IMG/VR virus record: IMGVR_UViG_3300006076_000005
Coordinates: 1-53,485 of that record
DNA: 53,485 nt
Reading direction: 5' to 3' (one strand)
Origin: a virus
Lineage: Duplodnaviria > Caudoviricetes
Positions within the stretch are counted from its first letter, which is position 1, and each line of letters opens with the position of its first letter. Of this stretch, positions 1 through 25,397 are shown one piece after another. The notes beneath the pieces are model-generated. The model was given only the letters and a program-made list of their open reading frames with translations, had not been told where the DNA came from and searched no databases. The position numbers and the translations under genes were made by a program.

Positions 1-130
1 TACGGCACCGGCTCCCGGGGGATACCAGCTGGTTAGGCTGGTTCGGCCGCCCAAATCTTTATTTTAGGTGGCGATTTTATCCACCCCTGCCTGCGCAAAA
101 CCCTAGAAACCGGCAGGAAGTTTCTAGAGC
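1..130 (-). ncRNA. Unidentified structured RNA (probable 5' part, runs off the window), with H-type pseudoknot
   Basis: 73/130 nt are G+C in an AT-rich genome and there is no ORF. On the minus strand: stem CUCUAGAAAC(129-120)/GUUUCUAGGG(110-101), whose loop UUCCUGCC can pair with GGCAGGGG(91-84); further hairpins GGUGG/CCACC and ACCAGC/GCUGGU. G-U pairs favour the minus strand. Confidence 0.6.
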
Positions 131-230
131 TTCGTATTAATGATATATAAGTGAAATTTTTTACAAATAATTTAACAACCTACTTCATACATTGAATCCT
201 GTAGAAAGAATAAAACAATAAGGAGTTATA

Positions 231-707
231 ATGGGTAAAAAAGAAAAAAAGTTAGTTATTAAGAACAATAACAACAATAAGAATAAAGAAGTGGTTAAGT
301 GGGATGATCTTATAGTAGTGCATGAAAATGCTGTTAATATTTTAAAAGAAACTGTAGATAGGCTAAAAGAGATGACGACTAAATATGCTAAATATATAAA
401 CAGTAATGAAAAATTAGGCAATGATTTAGTAGCTATTTCTAAGTCTATAGAACAATTTAAAAACGAACTAGATGAGATCAAATCTCTACATACAGTTAAA
501 AACAACAAAGGTGAAGTAGTATTTAGAACAGGTGAAGTGTCTACCGATGATGAAAAAATAATGATTTTATTTATTAACGCTAATTTAGCTTATGAAGGTT
601 TTATAGAAAAAATAACTAACTATTTGGATACAACTATTGTCACATTTGCAGGTAACTTAGCAGAAGAAGTTGAAAAAACTAAAAAAGGAGACAAAAATGG
701 AAAATAA
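231..707 (+). CDS. Hypothetical coiled-coil phage protein (158 aa)
   Basis: AAGGAG SD upstream of the ATG; overlaps the start of the next gene. Confidence 0.8.
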   Translation: MGKKEKKLVIKNNNNNKNKEVVKWDDLIVVHENAVNILKETVDRLKEMTTKYAKYINSNEKLGNDLVAISKSIEQFKNELDEIKSLHTVKNNKGEVVFRTGEVSTDDEKIMILFINANLAYEGFIEKITNYLDTTIVTFAGNLAEEVEKTKKGDKNGK

Positions 708-2136: not shown

Positions 2137-2669
2137 CACTTAAGACTAACAGGTTATTAGAAAACATTTGTAAGGAGAGATTTGAAGAGTATGGTAAATT
2201 AAAAGAACTTGATTTCTTTTATCAGTCCGCTAGTAATAACATTATAACTAATATAGAAAGATTTCTAGACATAGTTTTTAAACACATACCTCCTAAGAAG
2301 TATAGAGGTATAGAATTACAAATCATACGCAGGAAACTATATAGATTTCTATTAAACTTAAAAGTTAATTCTAAGAATAATATAGATGCTATAAAATATG
2401 AACCTGAAACTAACCCTAACTTTATATCAACGCTTTTTGATTCTATAGAAACATATGTTAAGTTAGATATATTTAAAACAACAGGTATATCTTATACAGA
2501 ATTTAAAAACTTGACAGTTCTTGAACAGATAGTATTATTAGAATATGTTAAACAGAAAAAGGATGAAGAAACAATAGTGTCAGAAATAATGTTTGATAAG
2601 ACAGAAGAGTTAGACAATAAACTAGACAATATGGATATAGGTAGTCTTTATAAAAGTAACGGATTTTAG
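2082..2669 (+). CDS. Start-less -1 frame extension (about 195 codons) of 697..2136; putative frameshifted GT-type / T4 gp51-like domain
   Basis: The frame is stop-free from 2028 to TAG 2667-2669 with no ATG/GTG/TTG until its last ~53 codons. It contains GISYTEFKNLTVLEQIVLLEYV, and a hairpin starts on its stop codon. Confidence 0.65.
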   Translation, partial: FVSKFSLQCDYGKADDSLTLKTNRLLENICKERFEEYGKLKELDFFYQSASNNIITNIERFLDIVFKHIPPKKYRGIELQIIRRKLYRFLLNLKVNSKNNIDAIKYEPETNPNFISTLFDSIETYVKLDIFKTTGISYTEFKNLTVLEQIVLLEYVKQKKDEETIVSEIMFDKTEELDNKLDNMDIGSLYKSNGF

Positions 2670-2695
2670 TCAGGTTCTATTATAAGAACCTGACT
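2668..2695. terminator. Hairpin terminator
   Basis: AGTCAGGTTCT-attata-AGAACCTGACT, overlapping the TAG at 2667-2669. Confidence 0.7.
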
Positions 2696-2727
2696 GTTAC
2701 ATTTTTTTAAATAAAAAGGAGTTGATG

Positions 2728-3495
2728 ATGGAGAACATAGGTATAAAAATAGGAGACAATATTTATGTAGACCTTGAGTCTTTATTCGACATACGTTTTA
2801 GTGTATTAGAGAACTTTTTTCAAAATGTAAAATATAAAAACCTTAATTTTATCGATATGATAAAAAAAGATAAAGTTCTATATTATGGTAGAATGACTTT
2901 AGGTTTAGTTAATATACCTACAAGTTATTTTAGATATATTTATAATAAAATTCTTAACAATGAAAATAAATTCAAAAAGATACTTAAAAGAAGTAAATTA
3001 ACTAATGTTACTAATATAATAAATGCTGAAACAGTTCTATTAGAATCTAAAAAACTAACAGAAGATGAAGTGAAAGTTAAACTATATGTTAACACATTTC
3101 CTTATACATTAACAGAAAAAGAAAAAGAGACATTGAGGTTTATATTAACAACTGTTACTATATTAAGACATGATGATATAGAGATTGTAAAAGAAGACAA
3201 CACTACTTTAGTAAACAATATGAAATCTGGTAAATATGATGTTATGTTTATGTATAGAGGTTTTGAATGGATTATGGTTAATAAGTTCCTTTATAACATA
3301 AAAGTTCCAGAAGTTAAATTATATACTCCTGCTATATTTGAAAATGTTAATATAGATGTAGATAAACCAGAACAGATAGAAACTCTGTTTAATTCTTATA
3401 AAGAGATATTAGAACCTTATGTAGATTTAACGTTCTTGCCACATGAGGTTTTTTCATTATCCTTTCCTATATACGAAAAAATAAAAAATAGCTAG
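2728..3495 (+). CDS. Conserved phiKZ-like hypothetical protein, degenerate HAD-like N-terminus
   Basis: SD AGGAG at 2717-2721; YVDLESLFDIR resembles the DLDxLLDTR family of phiKZ-like phages. Confidence 0.65.
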   Translation: MENIGIKIGDNIYVDLESLFDIRFSVLENFFQNVKYKNLNFIDMIKKDKVLYYGRMTLGLVNIPTSYFRYIYNKILNNENKFKKILKRSKLTNVTNIINAETVLLESKKLTEDEVKVKLYVNTFPYTLTEKEKETLRFILTTVTILRHDDIEIVKEDNTTLVNNMKSGKYDVMFMYRGFEWIMVNKFLYNIKVPEVKLYTPAIFENVNIDVDKPEQIETLFNSYKEILEPYVDLTFLPHEVFSLSFPIYEKIKNS

Positions 3496-3517
3496 AGTAG
3501 GTATAAACCTACTCTAG
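3492..3517. terminator. Bidirectional hairpin terminator between convergent genes
   Basis: CTAGAGTAGGT-ataa-ACCTACTCTAG; both TAG stop codons lie in the stem. Confidence 0.75.
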
Positions 3518-3819
3518 TCTTTTATTTCCATATCTCCTAATACATTTTCTGCCAATTCGTTATCTTCAAATTTCTTACTTAATTTATTTTCTAGAGCATT
3601 TATGAAGTCTTGATCTTCTTTATCCAAAATAAATTTACCTGTTTTAAGATCTACTTTTACAAATGGATTAAATGTAAATCTAGGAGATGGATATTTTTTC
3701 CTAAGATTTAACATAGTTCCAAATACCAAGTCCTCGGCTCTTAATATTCTCGTATTTTTAGGTAAAGTGTTATTACTATTTTTATTAGAAGCGCGATGGA
3801 CGCCTATTGCCCTGTTTTG
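3514..3819 (-). CDS. rpoB: Exon 2 of non-virion RNA polymerase beta N-terminal subunit (phiKZ gp123-like)
   Basis: In frame after the intron terminal G (TTG|CAA). Reads QNRAIGVH...AEDLVFGTMLNLRKKYPSPRFTFNPFV, the gp123-type C-terminus. Confidence 0.8.
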   Translation of the reverse strand, partial: QNRAIGVHRASNKNSNNTLPKNTRILRAEDLVFGTMLNLRKKYPSPRFTFNPFVKVDLKTGKFILDKEDQDFINALENKLSKKFEDNELAENVLGDMEIKD

Positions 3820-4240
3820 CAATATCTTCACGTAGGGTCGCTACTCCTACGCCGCGGCTTTACCCGCTGCTCTAGGTTTCCCTAGACGACCAGGGTTTAC
3901 ACATCCTGGAAGGTTGTATACTATAGGGCTGTTAGTATACAACGTTGAGACTATATCTTCAGTAGCATAAAGCTACTGGGCGGCTTTACGAGGTCGCTTG
4001 ACCTCTCTCTTTAACAGAAGTCTTGGTCATTTAACTCCTGTTAAAATTTAGTCGTTGAACGTTCGCCATAGGTTTATAACCCTTAGGTGCTTCGCTGCGG
4101 ATCACCCATTATTGCATCCTTACACTTTTTACCATACCCTGTTGGTTAGACAGGCCCCCACATCTGTTTCCAGTGTGAGTTGGTATGCAAGGCTTTAGGG
4201 CTTTCCCGCAATTAACCGCCTTTAAAGAGAACCAAAGTTA
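3820..4240 (-). ncRNA. Group I self-splicing intron, 421 nt, no homing endonuclease ORF
   Basis: P AAUUGCGGGAAA (4213-4202), Q GAUCCGCAGC (4103-4094), R GUUCAACGACUAAA (4060-4047), S AAGAUAUAGUCU (3959-3948). P1 is exon AGAGGAU / IGS GUUCUCU with a U-G splice pair; P10 UUUG/CAAA; P3 GGCGGUU/AGCCGCC; terminal G at 3820. Confidence 0.95.
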
Positions 4241-5686
4241 ATCCTCTAGTATGCTTGTCATTTTCCAATAATAGTTATCACCACTATAATCGTTGTTAGG
4301 CATGACAGCAATATTAATCTGACCCGCTTTGATAAGGTTGAATATTTTCTTAGGTGTTATGTAATCTGTAAATATTCTAGCTGCCTCTTTTTCACTTAGT
4401 TTACCTTTAGCTGCTGTTCTTTGTAATTCTAAGAATGCTTTGTTAATACTTACAATAAAGTCGAATAGAATGTAATATAGAATCTCTATATATCTGTTAT
4501 TTATATCGGATAGATGAGATTCTAAAAACATAGTCAACTCGTTGAAGTGATCGACAGCGTAGAATAGTAGTTCGAAGAAATCCTCTACATAAATGTTTTT
4601 CTCTTCTAGTTTCTCTTTGATAATATTATCCAAATAACCATTTAAGATATTGATATGTTCTGTCATATCTTCTAATATCCTAATAGGTGTGTAGTTGTTA
4701 TTGAACACATATTTACCTAATAAGATAACCCAAAATCTAGTTTCGTCGTCCATATCCACTGGATCTAATTGTGTATTAGGTTCTTTCTTTTTACCTAACA
4801 CATCTTTTAGATTAAGTGTTACTGTTGGAAATATGTCAAATAGATAAATAAGCCCTGTTATGAGGCTCTCCATAGTGGAATTAACATCTTTTTTCTTAAC
4901 ATAAATTTTAACTTCATGTGGTATATAATTTAGATTTCTTAATATACCAATTCTAGGCTTCTGTCCTGTTGTTGTATATTCTATATAACCTTCTTTTCTG
5001 AGTCTTTCGCCTTCTTCTAATGCCTCTTTATCATTACCTATAAGGACTATAGGTTCTGTATTAAAATAGTGTTTAAACAACCCAAAGAACCCCCATTTGA
5101 TAAGTAGATATATCATAATAGGAGGATTTTTGTTAATGTTCTTATCATTTTGTAACTTAAATATATTACCATATATAATAGGTCTAATATGTTTTTCTCC
5201 GTTGATTAAAATAACTCTTTCCATTTTCTTAATGTTAAGTTTATCTCTCAATAGTCTAATAAATACTCCTCCTATTTCAGGTGCTATAGGATATTGAGAT
5301 AAAACAGGAACTATTAAGTAATCAGCACTTGATAATTGTAATGCTCCTCCTCTTTCTACAAATGGTAAACTAACAGTTTTTCTTATTTCTGAATTCTTAT
5401 ATCTGAATATGAACTCTATCTTAAACAGATAATTCTTTGTTATGTCTACTTCATTCTTACTATATGCTGTATTAATGTTTGTTTTAAAGTCTTCTTCAGG
5501 TGTTAGATGTCTATAACCTAGATATTCGAATTCTAAATCTTTATCTAATGTAACTAAAGCAGATTTTATTACATTATCTAAATAGGTTGTTATCTTCTCT
5601 AACATTTTAGTAGCTAATCCGTTCATTATGTTAGAATTGAATTTAGGTGTATTTCTATCTAATACGTTTCTTAGTATTGGGTTCAT
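4241..5686 (-). CDS. rpoB: Exon 1 of non-virion RNA polymerase beta N-terminal subunit (phiKZ gp123-like); spliced product 583 aa
   Basis: Motifs LPFVERGG..L, VPVLS, FIRLLRDKL; position three genes downstream of the MCP, as in phiKZ. Ends SILED immediately before the intron. Confidence 0.85.
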
Positions 5687-7743: not shown

Positions 7744-9912
7744 TTAGCTTAAAGACTCAACATAGATAGGAAGTTGTCTAACAGCTTCATCAAGATTGAT
7801 CACATTGGCTACTACAACAATTGGTAAGAATGGTTGATGTTTGAAGCTTAGGATAACATCATTTTGATCGTATTTAGCTTTGCCTTCTCTTACACCATAA
7901 CTAAGTACAAATTCATTTTTAACCCATGTTACACCAAAGCTTAATGGGTTAGCTGCTTTATTAATGTTAGCGTCAAGTTGTCTGTCGATACCGAAACTGA
8001 TGATCATTTTGTCATCCATGATGCTATATTTAGAACTAACTACAACATATCTGAATTTTTCATCTTCGAAAGATTTGAAGTATTGGTTAATCTTAGCACT
8101 AGTACCAATAATAACTACTGGTTTTTGTCCTGGATAGTAATGATCGAATGCAAATTTATAATTAGATTTAGTATACATATCCCAAGCAATAGTTTTGATA
8201 TAAAGTTCAAATGCTGCTTGAATATCTACTAATCTTTCTGAAGTTTTTAAGCTGTTAACAAGTCTTTTAACATCGATAACTAAGTTATCTTTATGATATT
8301 TGTTAATTAAGAAGTTAGCAACACCAAATGTTTTATAATCATTCGCCATATGTGGTAATGCTGCGATGTATTTAAATAGTGTTGTAAATCCATGCGCGTT
8401 CATAGCGTCTACACTATATCCAACTAAGCTATAAAGACCTTTAGGTTTTTTGTCGCTTCCAAGTTGGAACGCAGGTGTTTTTTCAGAAAGTTTAACTCTT
8501 GAAGGAACATTATAAACAAATGCATAACTAGAGATGTTAAGTCTTTTTCCTTCATATCTTCCCATTTCGTTGTTACCATAAGCTTCTATGTCATAAGCTG
8601 CTAATTTAGCTCCGCTAACAGCTGCAACTGCATCTGTATAATCATCAGGACTTAACTCATTTCCATTGTTGTCGTAAATACCTTTGAATTTACTGCTAAA
8701 TTGATTTACTAAGATGTTGGCAGTATCAACGTTAGCATCACCTTTGAAGTTAACTTCTAAGATCATATAGTAACCGTCTGTTAAATCTTGTAAAGCTTTA
8801 ATTTGTGTTGGTTTTCCACTAGCTGTAATAAATGGTGCTTTGAAAATGAATGATCTAGACTCGTTAAGTTGCATATCTTTATCATTACCATCTAGCGTAT
8901 ACAAGAATGAAATAGGTAATCCACCAACTTCTTTTCTATAAAGTTCTTTTACATCATTACCATCTTTGTCTTTACCAGTGATCCAGAAGTATACTGTTTC
9001 AATGTTTAATACTGGTAAAATAGTATCTAATTCGTTTAAGAACCCTTTTGCTAAAAGTGTGTCTGTTTGGCTAAGATTTAAGATATTTGTTTCAACACCA
9101 GCTTTGATAGCTGCAGTTGTGACTTTAACACCATCCATTAATTCAACTTCTTTTTTAGCACCCTCTTCGTTTAATAAATAATTAGTATTAACATACTCGC
9201 CATCTACTCTTAAGATAGGATAAAGTCTGTTTCCATCGATAACGTATCTGTTAAAGTCTTCGATATGCTTAATATATGGTTCTTTTTTGTAATCCACTGG
9301 TTTACCGTTAGGTAATCTTTTAAATGGTGTAATGTAATGGATAACATCAACTTCTACATAAATTTCTTGTGTGTCAATATCTAATTGTACTGTTGGGAAG
9401 AATGTTTCAATAACAGGATCTTGTTTTTTCTCAATGCTGTTAAATGCTACTGTAAAGAATACAGATTTTTTAATATCGATGCTGTTAACATCTTCATTAG
9501 CTGGAATTAACGAACTATAAAGATCTTCTGAGTTGTTTATGGCAGGCGAAAGATCTCTACTAACAGAAACAACTTCAATATTTTCATTAGCCGCTTTTAA
9601 TTCTTCTGCTAATCTACTTTGTCTTTTAGATAATTTTTCAAGTGTTTCAACAGGATTTAAAACACTTTTAACTAACCTAGTTGATTTTTCAACTAGATCT
9701 TCACTATCATCATCACTACCGATACTATCTTCATGCGCTATACCTGTTGTAAGCGCTGCTTGAATAGTATTTAAAAAGTTAACAGCTTCAGGTGTTGTAG
9801 TTCCAATATCTTCACCAGCTGCAACAAGTTTACCGATACTTTTTAGTTCATCTTGCGTATAATTATCAATTTTCTCTGCAAGATTATTTAAAATAGTTTC
9901 TATTTTACCCAT
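7744..9912 (-). CDS. Major capsid protein (phiKZ gp120-like), with cleaved propeptide
   Basis: 722 aa; Q(D)PVIETFFPTV motif, NPLSFGVTW and HQPFLPI C-terminus; AxE sites in the N-terminal ~140 aa; divergent from DnaB as in phiKZ. Confidence 0.88.
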   Translation of the reverse strand: MGKIETILNNLAEKIDNYTQDELKSIGKLVAAGEDIGTTTPEAVNFLNTIQAALTTGIAHEDSIGSDDDSEDLVEKSTRLVKSVLNPVETLEKLSKRQSRLAEELKAANENIEVVSVSRDLSPAINNSEDLYSSLIPANEDVNSIDIKKSVFFTVAFNSIEKKQDPVIETFFPTVQLDIDTQEIYVEVDVIHYITPFKRLPNGKPVDYKKEPYIKHIEDFNRYVIDGNRLYPILRVDGEYVNTNYLLNEEGAKKEVELMDGVKVTTAAIKAGVETNILNLSQTDTLLAKGFLNELDTILPVLNIETVYFWITGKDKDGNDVKELYRKEVGGLPISFLYTLDGNDKDMQLNESRSFIFKAPFITASGKPTQIKALQDLTDGYYMILEVNFKGDANVDTANILVNQFSSKFKGIYDNNGNELSPDDYTDAVAAVSGAKLAAYDIEAYGNNEMGRYEGKRLNISSYAFVYNVPSRVKLSEKTPAFQLGSDKKPKGLYSLVGYSVDAMNAHGFTTLFKYIAALPHMANDYKTFGVANFLINKYHKDNLVIDVKRLVNSLKTSERLVDIQAAFELYIKTIAWDMYTKSNYKFAFDHYYPGQKPVVIIGTSAKINQYFKSFEDEKFRYVVVSSKYSIMDDKMIISFGIDRQLDANINKAANPLSFGVTWVKNEFVLSYGVREGKAKYDQNDVILSFKHQPFLPIVVVANVINLDEAVRQLPIYVESLS

Positions 9913-25376: not shown

Positions 25377-25397
25377 AAATTAATGATATGGTTTCAA

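What the first reader, a model, noticed from the sequence alone, without database searches (positions are those of the whole stretch)
1..150. Unassigned GC-rich pseudoknotted RNA starting just downstream of a candidate early promoter
Seen: a 56% GC non-coding island. On the minus strand it forms a 10-bp stem (129-120/110-101) whose loop UUCCUGCC pairs with GGCAGGGG (91-84), an H-type pseudoknot. It is followed by hairpins GGUGG/CCACC and ACCAGC/GCUGGU nested in CGGC/GCCG. The motif ATATCATTAA (146-137), identical to the one upstream of picA, sits a few nt before the first stem. I could not recognise tRNA, tmRNA, RNase P, hammerhead, pistol, or group I/II cores in the visible part. Inference: this is the 5' end of an independently transcribed large phage ncRNA or ribozyme, with the pseudoknot possibly protecting the 5' end. 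Most of it is probably outside the window, so its identity cannot be settled here.
Basis: partly seen in the sequence, partly recalled or inferred. Interest (0 to 1): 0.75.

Follow-up and report, generated by a model that had tools for sequence, protein, structure and literature searches.

The report
Orphan GC-rich RNA-like island in phage
A 133-base GC-rich, non-coding, strongly folding stretch sits where related giant phages have only a short AT-rich gap between two diverging gene blocks; it looks like a lineage-specific structured RNA, but what it does cannot be settled from the sequence in hand.

Summary
The island is real. Bases 1-133 are 55.6% GC in a 28.4% GC phiKZ-like jumbo-phage fragment, and they are non-coding. 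The 10-bp hairpin is there. A co-occurring strain keeps it through a compensatory A-T to G-C change. The minus strand folds better than shuffles (z -2.9); the plus strand does not (z -0.6). The claimed pseudoknot pairing exists but is at chance level (5-12.5% of shuffles). The island matched no Rfam family, tRNA or tmRNA, and no other sequence: INPHARED phages, IMG/VR probes, 128 loci, 5 relative phage records, 401 Campylobacterales genomes.

In 16 of 19 relatives the same position is a 21-162 nt AT-rich gap between a leftward operon and the rightward ORF, so the island is a lineage-specific insert. The window appears to be the right-hand 53.5 kb of a 72.5 kb contig. Its left edge would then be a trimming boundary, not an assembly break. 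The minus-strand fold closes inside the window, so "mostly outside the window" is not supported.

Best reading (0.4): a structured minus-strand leader or leader-derived small RNA of the leftward operon. Rivals are a larger ncRNA, the structured end of a mobile element, and an intron fragment. A host CRISPR spacer starts at base 81.

The parts
1..133 (-). GC-rich non-coding island, 55.6% GC. The strand is the best guess, not shown.
   Evidence: for composition. for the fold asymmetry (minus -55.4 kcal/mol with 6 G-U pairs; plus -45.2 with 2); stops in all minus frames. The only long plus frame (3-140) takes 4 of the 5 strain differences at second codon positions (positions worked out by hand).
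97..133 (-). First hairpin. The core is 10 bp (101-110/120-129) and extends to 15 bp on the minus strand. The loop is 111-119. UUUU follows the extended stem on the minus strand.
   Evidence: The variant strain has 109 A>G together with 121 T>C (A-T to G-C, compensatory). It also has 124 C>T, which gives G-U on the plus strand and C-A on the minus strand. No change is listed in loop 111-119.
84..91 (-). Stretch complementary to the hairpin loop (possible H-type pseudoknot).
   Evidence: 8 pairs including 2 G-U. Reached by 12.5% of shuffles over 100 nt and 5% over 45 nt.
67..85 (-). The MFE uses an alternative pairing here.
24..42 (-). ACCAGC/GCUGGU hairpin with a 7-nt loop. It is kept in the MFE of both strands.
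   Evidence: The weak Rfam hits (12.6-14.3 bits) are only this hairpin.
12..16 (-). GGGAG on the minus strand, Shine-Dalgarno-like. It lies 11 nt from the window edge, in an internal loop of the MFE.
   Evidence: Its role is inferred only.
137..147 (-). ATATCATTAAT motif just upstream (minus sense) of the island; candidate promoter or initial transcribed sequence.
   Evidence: The second intergenic copy at 25380-25390 is also followed by a hairpin. Related ATCAT..TATG-like strings lie upstream of the syntenic minus-strand gene in relatives; this was judged by eye.
192..197 (+). TTGAAT, 39 nt upstream of ORF 231-707; candidate late promoter of the rightward block.
   Evidence: 6 of 46 genes have it within 80 nt upstream, against 1.4 expected.
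231..707 (+). First gene of the rightward block (158 aa). It is followed by a homologue of phiKZ gp77 at 697-2136.
81..115 (+). Start of a match to a CRISPR spacer carried by a contig of the same metagenome. The end coordinate is approximate and was not shown.
   Evidence: loose end of 26 nt before base 81; its 22-nt core is a CRISPR repeat in 13 genome stretches.

Best explanation
The island is a lineage-specific, structured, non-coding RNA element read on the minus strand. It lies between the divergent promoter region (about 137-200) and the leftward operon, which in relatives starts with a fast-evolving ~300-350 aa gene followed by a ~430 aa gene.

It would be made as the 5' leader of that operon. 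It begins with a very stable 10-15 bp hairpin, which could shield the 5' end. Together with the UUUU that follows, the hairpin could also stop part of the transcripts early and release a short leader-derived RNA. A multi-helix domain follows and ends near a GGGAG at the window edge.

Shown: the composition, the lack of coding signal, the hairpin and its compensatory change, the strand asymmetry of folding, and the absence of the element from relatives at the same position.

Inferred: transcription, the strand, the start point, the link to the downstream gene, and any regulatory effect.
For: Folding:
- The minus strand folds at z -2.90 (1 of 200 shuffles), the plus strand at z -0.61.
- Minus 133->1 gives -55.4 kcal/mol with 46 pairs, 6 of them G-U, and closes within the window. 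It keeps the same architecture at 55 and 70 C. The plus strand gives -45.2 with 2 G-U.

Variant strain:
- A second strain in the same run (contig depth 29.9, against 23 for the window strain) carries the right part of the island at the same place.
- It changes 109 A>G together with 121 T>C, which pair with each other. No change is listed in the loop.
- A 161-nt contig identical to window 1-83 has depth 51.7, about the sum of the two strains. Elsewhere the strains differ by 16 of 129 and 34 of 201 bases.

Synteny:
- The gene order from ORF 231 rightwards is conserved.
- In 16 of 19 relatives examined, a minus-strand gene starts 21-162 nt from the ORF-231 homologue, across an AT-rich gap. The 3 remaining loci show a minus-strand start codon in the printed 200 nt.
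- None of 22 loci has a non-coding GC island there.
- The homologue of the second leftward gene (P0024, 436 aa) is recorded on a 72525-nt contig, as is the window's own protein P0001. It is not in the window, so the leftward operon does lie to the left.

Other:
- The ATATCATTAAT motif plus a hairpin recurs upstream of another minus-strand gene.
- In 201phi2-1, 8 of 11 small RNAs arise by early termination in 5' UTRs (PMC11512511, passages read).
Against: - No transcript data.
- In the variant, 124 C>T keeps the pair on the plus strand (G-U) but breaks it on the minus strand (C-A). The natural variation therefore does not settle the strand.
- The terminator scan finds nothing in 1-400. The run after the hairpin is only UUUU.
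- The promoter motif rests on two intergenic copies, and its 16-mer is not enriched.
- phiKZ 5' UTRs are mostly 31-40 nt (PMC8244752, passages), so a leader of 133 nt or more would be unusual.
- The first leftward gene of this phage was not identified. What abuts base 1 is unknown.
- A contig runs at least 78 nt further left.
- No homologue was found, so there is no covariation beyond one pair in one strain.
Confidence: 0.4

Rival explanations
1. It is the 5' part of a larger, independently transcribed phage ncRNA or ribozyme that continues beyond the window.
For: A contig identical to window 1-83 continues 78 nt further left. Its depth equals the sum of both strains, which would mean 161 nt or more are invariant while neighbouring sequence differs by 12-17%. 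The minus strand folds best. The island matches no known family, so it would be new.
Against: The fold closes within the window. The composition of the extra 78 nt is unknown. No ribozyme or large-RNA family gives even a truncated match at E up to 10. No homologue was found anywhere. Synteny predicts a protein gene right here.
Confidence: 0.2
2. It is the structured end of a mobile element inserted in the intergenic gap. One example is the right end of an IS200/IS605-type element, whose guide (omega) RNA would run on the plus strand up to about base 133. Another is the non-coding end of an IS110- or IscB-type element on the minus strand.
For: It is an insert relative to all relatives. Its composition is foreign to the phage. 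A hairpin lies 4 nt from the sharp compositional boundary. The 124 C>T change fits a plus-strand RNA or a DNA hairpin. The left part is identical between diverged strains, and extra contigs lie on 1-100 (summed depth 97 and 232, against about 53 for the two strains). The architecture of such elements is recalled, not tested.
Against: The plus strand folds no better than shuffles. The island was not found in 401 Campylobacterales genomes by DNA (10 short chance-level hits), nor in 151 by model. No second copy exists in the window. No Rfam match on the island at E up to 10; I recall that HEARO is an Rfam family. The summed depth also double-counts overlapping short contigs. The element would separate the operon from its promoter.
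Confidence: 0.15
3. It is a fragment of a self-splicing intron like the one in this phage's RNA polymerase gene.
For: The phage has a 421-nt, ORF-less group I intron of 40-59% GC at 3820-4240 on the minus strand. Relatives have more. phiKZ has introns in polymerase genes close to gp77 (PMC11512511, passage).
Against: The same Rfam search that scores the real intron at 78.3 bits gives nothing on the island, even in truncated mode at E up to 10. There is no exon on either side: 134-230 has no usable frame on either strand. The N-termini of the neighbouring gene are not conserved among relatives, so it is a poor homing site.
Confidence: 0.05
4. It acts as DNA (a binding, replication or recombination site), or it is an assembly artefact.
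For: The compensatory change is equally compatible with a DNA hairpin. The location between divergent units suits a control region.
Against: Two independent contigs of two strains join bases 70/81-133 to the AT-rich phage sequence, so that junction is not chimeric. The strand asymmetry of folding is not expected for a DNA site.
Confidence: 0.1

Closest known systems
5'UTR-derived small RNAs and structured leaders of phiKZ-like giant phages (201phi2-1 sRNA005, phiKZ sRNA upstream of gp182)
   Same: A short structured RNA region directly downstream of a phage promoter and upstream of a gene in the same sense, in a phiKZ-like genome (PMC11512511, passages read).
   Different: No sequence or model match to any relative. 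It is much more GC-rich than its genome and longer than typical phiKZ leaders of 31-40 nt (PMC8244752). It sits at a different locus. Transcription is not shown. Table S4 of PMC11512511, which lists those sRNAs, could not be seen.
Group I intron (Rfam RF00028) of the same phage, 3820-4240 minus
   Same: A GC-rich, ORF-less structured island in an AT-rich jumbo phage.
   Different: No model match, no flanking exons, and an intergenic position.
Guide RNAs at the ends of IS200/IS605-, IscB- or IS110-type elements (recalled from the literature, not read here)
   Same: A structured non-coding stretch with a sharp boundary, a hairpin near the end, lineage-specific presence and possibly extra copies.
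   Different: No associated nuclease or recombinase gene is visible. The plus-strand fold is not significant. No Rfam match on the island at E up to 10 (HEARO recalled to be in Rfam). No other copy was found in the sequences searched.

Membership tests
Group I intron (RF00028) | Match to the covariance model of the catalytic core | tested here: not met
   One search finds only 3929-4296 (78.3 bits). (E up to 10, truncated matches allowed) gives no intron hit on 1-300.
Group I intron (RF00028) | Interrupts a gene whose two exons join into one conserved frame | tested here: not met
   No exon-like frame in 134-230 on either strand. The left side is not visible. For contrast, the real intron restores residues 484|485 of the L003 homologue.
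tRNA / tmRNA | Cloverleaf or tmRNA recognised by ARAGORN | tested here: not met
   0 genes in the whole window.
Any Rfam 15 family (riboswitches, ribozymes, RNase P, 6S, SRP, GOLLD, ROOL, HEARO and others; membership of these in Rfam is recalled) | Score at or near the family's gathering threshold | tested here: not met
   The best scores are 14.3, 12.6 and 7.3 bits, against thresholds of 60, 45 and 95. The two on the island cover only the 19-nt hairpin at 24-42.
H-type pseudoknot | Loop-to-flank pairing beyond chance or supported by covariation | tested here: inconclusive
   The pairing is present but is reached by 251 of 2000 and 102 of 2000 shuffles. The loop is unchanged in the variant. 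The partner 84-91 lies in the part of the variant contig where differences are not listed.
5'UTR-derived sRNA / structured leader of giant phages | Lies between a transcription start and a gene of the same sense | tested here: inconclusive
   Synteny places a minus-strand gene to the left in 16 of 19 relatives, and the second gene of that operon is on the parent contig. Neither the start site nor the adjacent gene is seen.
5'UTR-derived sRNA / structured leader of giant phages | Promoter-proximal intrinsic terminator | tested here: not met
   0 terminator-like sites in 1-400. The hairpin is followed by only four U.
IS200/IS605 (TnpB) right end with omega RNA | Lies at the 3' end of a tnpB gene on the same strand | not testable with these tools
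   The left flank is not available.
IS200/IS605 (TnpB) right end with omega RNA | More than one copy in host or phage genomes | tested here: inconclusive
   Extra contigs lie on 1-100 in the run. No copy was found in the window, 128 loci, 5 phage records or 401 Campylobacterales genomes.

The most novel reading that the evidence does not exclude
An orphan structured RNA of more than 200 nt that evolves far more slowly than its surroundings. It would be specific to one lineage of hydrothermal-vent jumbo phages of Campylobacterales and placed at the head of the operon for a phage RNA polymerase subunit. It could be a new ribozyme or riboregulator, or the guide RNA of an undescribed mobile element. 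The host's CRISPR system has sampled it.
Probability: 0.2. Interest if true: 0.65.

Novelty: new member of a known kind. Interest (0 to 1): 0.35.

Why it matters
Structured RNAs of giant phages are barely charted. In AT-rich phages of vent bacteria they stand out as GC islands, which makes them easy to find. An element kept identical between strains that differ by 12-17% elsewhere would be a good candidate for a regulatory RNA of the phage's own transcription machinery. That holds only if the depth reading is right. As it stands it is a lead, not a discovery. It has one sequence, one compensatory pair, no homologues and no transcript.

Tried and rejected
Searches that found nothing on the island:
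- BLAST of 1-2200 and 1-160 against INPHARED phages: no match.
- Exact probes from the island in IMG/VR: 0 matches in 3 scans.
- Earlier-findings look-ups: nothing.
- BLAST of 1-160 against 115 fetched loci: only AT-rich 13-25 nt matches.
- DNA search in 5 whole relative phage records: none.
- DNA search in 5 candidate host genomes: E 0.07 or worse.
- DNA search in 401 Campylobacterales genomes: 10 genomes with 19-45 nt matches at E 0.001-0.008, against about 4 expected by chance.
- A covariance model built from the single sequence plus its MFE found only itself in the window plus 128 loci, in 5 phage records and in 151 genomes.

Getting the left flank:
- A single-protein search of IMG/VR found no relative.
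- An alignment-based search gave relatives of 48% identity or less. The 87% and 77% relatives seen as proteins were not returned.
- The first leftward gene of this phage was sought by profile. Contig lengths were looked up for 20 of the 150 listed hits. None lies on the 72525-nt contig.

Expression:
- No RNA holder was listed for the stretch.

CRISPR type of the arrays with the matching repeat:
- 16 flanking ORFs were scanned and none is a cas gene, so the type is undetermined.
- None of 101 spacers from those arrays matches the window over its length.

Rejected readings:
- tRNA-like reading of 17-85, by eye and by ARAGORN.
- Coding reading of plus frame 3-140. Its composition is odd, and 4 of 5 strain changes fall on second codon positions.
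- The GC island in L020 next to the syntenic gap is a coding gene start.
- The GC islands in L003 at 2891-3840 are unrelated.

Full report
**What the window is.**
The window is an IMG/VR virus record of 53,485 nt, rated 19% complete. It carries a phiKZ-type major capsid protein at 7744-9912 on the minus strand (PF25620, E 9e-69). It also carries a polymerase-family gene (phrog_2943) and a homologue of phiKZ gp77 at 697-2136. It is therefore a fragment of a phiKZ-like jumbo phage. It is 28.4% GC. The one sequencing run that holds it is labelled a hydrothermal vent metagenome.

**The observation.**
Bases 1-133 are 55.6% GC, and the composition drops sharply at about 133.
- the 10-bp stem 101-110/120-129;
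- the loop complementarity to 84-91;
- GGTGG/CCACC at 67-71/81-85;
- ACCAGC/GCTGGT at 24-29/37-42;
- CGGC/GCCG at 9-12/46-49.

The minus strand of 1-150 folds at -55.5 kcal/mol, z -2.90, matched by 1 of 200 shuffles. The plus strand gives z -0.61, matched by 57 of 200.

Folded alone, minus 133->1 gives -55.4 kcal/mol with 46 pairs, 6 of them G-U. It forms a 15-bp first hairpin and then a multi-branched domain whose closing helix pairs 93-96 with 5-8. The fold therefore closes inside the window. The architecture persists at 55 and 70 C. The plus strand gives -45.2 with 2 G-U pairs.

The pseudoknot pairing (8 pairs, 2 of them G-U) is not beyond chance. It is reached by 251 of 2000 shuffles over the 100 nt downstream, and by 102 of 2000 over the first 45 nt.

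The 10-mer TTAATGATAT occurs 4 times, against 0.84 expected. Two of the copies are inside genes. The two intergenic copies (137-146 and 25380-25389) have the same orientation, and a hairpin follows each on the minus strand. The longer 16-mer is not enriched.

**Not coding, not a known RNA.**
All three minus frames carry stops. The only long plus frame (3-140) has an odd composition. Four of the five listed strain differences in it fall on second codon positions (worked out by hand).

ARAGORN finds no tRNA or tmRNA in the window. Rfam at gathering thresholds finds only a group I intron at 3929-4296. At E up to 10 on bases 1-300, the only hits on the island are two that cover the 19-nt hairpin at 24-42, at 12.6-14.3 bits.

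The real intron is a useful contrast. The L003 homologue of the polymerase gene is uninterrupted. It aligns to window 5686-4241 and then to 3819-3556. The intron is therefore 421 nt (3820-4240, minus strand) with no ORF.

**Natural variation.**
Contigs of the one holder run were laid on 1-1500.
- The window strain is a contig of depth 23 that runs from base 81 onward with no differences.
- A second strain, depth 29.9, covers 70-198 with 16 differences and one insertion. It covers 789-989 with 34 differences.
- The listed differences in the island are 109 A>G, 121 T>C, 124 C>T, 130 C>A and 131 T>C.

Positions 109 and 121 pair with each other, so A-T becomes G-C, a compensatory change. The 124 change turns G-C into G-U on the plus strand but into C-A on the minus strand. 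Conversely, the 102/128 pair in the window is G-U on the minus strand and C-A on the plus strand. The variation supports the hairpin but not a strand. No change is listed in loop 111-119.

A 161-nt contig identical to window 1-83 runs 78 nt further left. Its depth is 51.7, close to 23 + 29.9. I read this as both strains being identical there. This is an inference from depth alone.

Summed depth over 1-50 (97) and 51-100 (232) exceeds the two strains. Part of the excess is double counting of overlapping short contigs. Part comes from other contigs at 85% identity or more that the table did not list. I cannot say what those are.

**The left edge.**
The window's own protein P0001 is recorded on a contig of 72,525 nt. 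So is P0024, a 436-aa homologue of the second leftward gene of relatives. No homologue of that gene is in the window. The ORF at the right end of the window is cut by the end.

I infer that the window is the right 53,485 nt of a 72,525-nt contig, with 19,040 nt removed on the left. If the usual host-trimming conventions apply (recalled, not checked), position 1 follows the end of a called gene. The left edge is then not an assembly break.

P0024 and P0025 are 85% identical and differ within their first 20 residues. This fits the two strains. It also argues that this gene does not abut the island.

**Synteny.**
From ORF 231 rightwards the gene order matches L003, L004 and L006. To the left, relatives carry three minus-strand genes: one of about 300-350 aa, one of about 425 aa and one of about 260 aa.

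In 16 of 19 loci examined, the gap between the first minus-strand gene and the ORF-231 homologue is 21-162 nt and AT-rich. In the other 3, the printed 200 nt show a minus-strand start codon. No non-coding GC island lies there in any of the 22 loci scanned.

The island is therefore an insert specific to the window's lineage, placed where the leader of the leftward operon should be. The N-termini of the first leftward gene are not conserved, which speaks against a homing intron there.

**Search for relatives of the island.**
Nothing was found in any of these searches:
- phage GenBank records;
- IMG/VR, by three exact probes;
- 115 loci by BLAST;
- 5 whole relative phage records;
- the window plus 128 loci, by a single-sequence covariance model;
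- 401 Campylobacterales genomes by DNA, with only chance-level short hits;
- 151 Campylobacterales genomes by model.

**Reading.**
The evidence fits a structured RNA better than a protein, a DNA repeat or an artefact. Two strains' contigs join 70/81-133 to the phage sequence.

I favour the minus strand for three reasons. The fold statistics point that way. The leftward operon lies on that side. The motif-plus-hairpin arrangement recurs upstream of another minus-strand gene. The simplest function is a long structured leader. Its first hairpin would protect the 5' end or, with UUUU, release a short RNA. In 201phi2-1, 8 of 11 small RNAs come from early termination in 5' UTRs (PMC11512511, passages).

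Four points weigh against this reading:
- the terminator scan is empty;
- phiKZ leaders are mostly 31-40 nt (PMC8244752, passages);
- the 124 change favours the plus strand;
- there are no RNA data.

I give this reading 0.4. The rivals are:
- a larger independent ncRNA, 0.2;
- the structured end of a mobile element, possibly a plus-strand guide RNA, 0.15;
- a DNA-level site or an artefact, 0.1;
- an intron fragment, 0.05.

**Verdict.**
The pseudoknot and the promoter are weaker than stated, and the "large ribozyme" is unsupported. The element is an orphan structured island of moderate interest. It is worth a look at the parent contig's left flank, which would settle most of the alternatives.

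Noticed in passing
window 81 to about 115 (+); L118-L130: A contig of the same metagenome matches the window from base 81 and is preceded by 26 nt of unrelated sequence. The 22-nt core of that sequence is a CRISPR repeat in arrays with a period of about 70 nt. It occurs in 13 genome stretches; 11 are titled Campylobacterales, Campylobacteraceae or Sulfurospirillum MAGs, one Pyrodictiaceae and one Aquificota. So a host spacer targets the island, and the host is probably a Campylobacterales bacterium. The repeat ends in ATTGAGAC next to the spacer. From what I recall of crRNA processing, the crRNA would pair with the minus strand. The CRISPR type was not determined: none of 16 flanking ORFs is a cas gene.
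   Followed up: partly
window 3820-4240 (-): A 421-nt ORF-less group I intron (RF00028, 78.3 bits) splits the polymerase-family gene. Exon 1 is 5686-4241 and exon 2 is 3819-3514. The L003 homologue is uninterrupted. Relatives L006 and L015 carry one and two group I introns.
   Followed up: yes
whole window; left edge: Two proteins share the same 'longest contig' length of 72,525 nt: the window's own P0001, and P0024, which is not in the window. The right-end ORF is cut. The record therefore seems to be a jumbo-phage contig from which 19 kb were trimmed on the left, perhaps as 'host'.
   Followed up: partly
window, upstream of 6 genes (for example 192-197; upstream of 7744-9912): TTGAAT lies 35-59 nt upstream of 6 of 46 gene starts, against 1.4 expected. 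One of them is the major capsid gene. It is a candidate late-promoter element. Many intergenic gaps also hold a perfect hairpin followed by a T-rich run.
   Followed up: partly
window 70-198, 789-989, 1090-1187, 1372-1499: A second strain of the phage co-occurs in the same run at similar depth (29.9, against 23). It differs by about 12-17% in nucleotides and 85-87% identical in proteins.
   Followed up: partly
window 2137-2721: A 585-nt stretch without an ORF of 60 aa or more lies between the gp77-like gene and the next gene. It holds only a 52-aa ORF (2511-2669) and a hairpin near its end.
   Followed up: no
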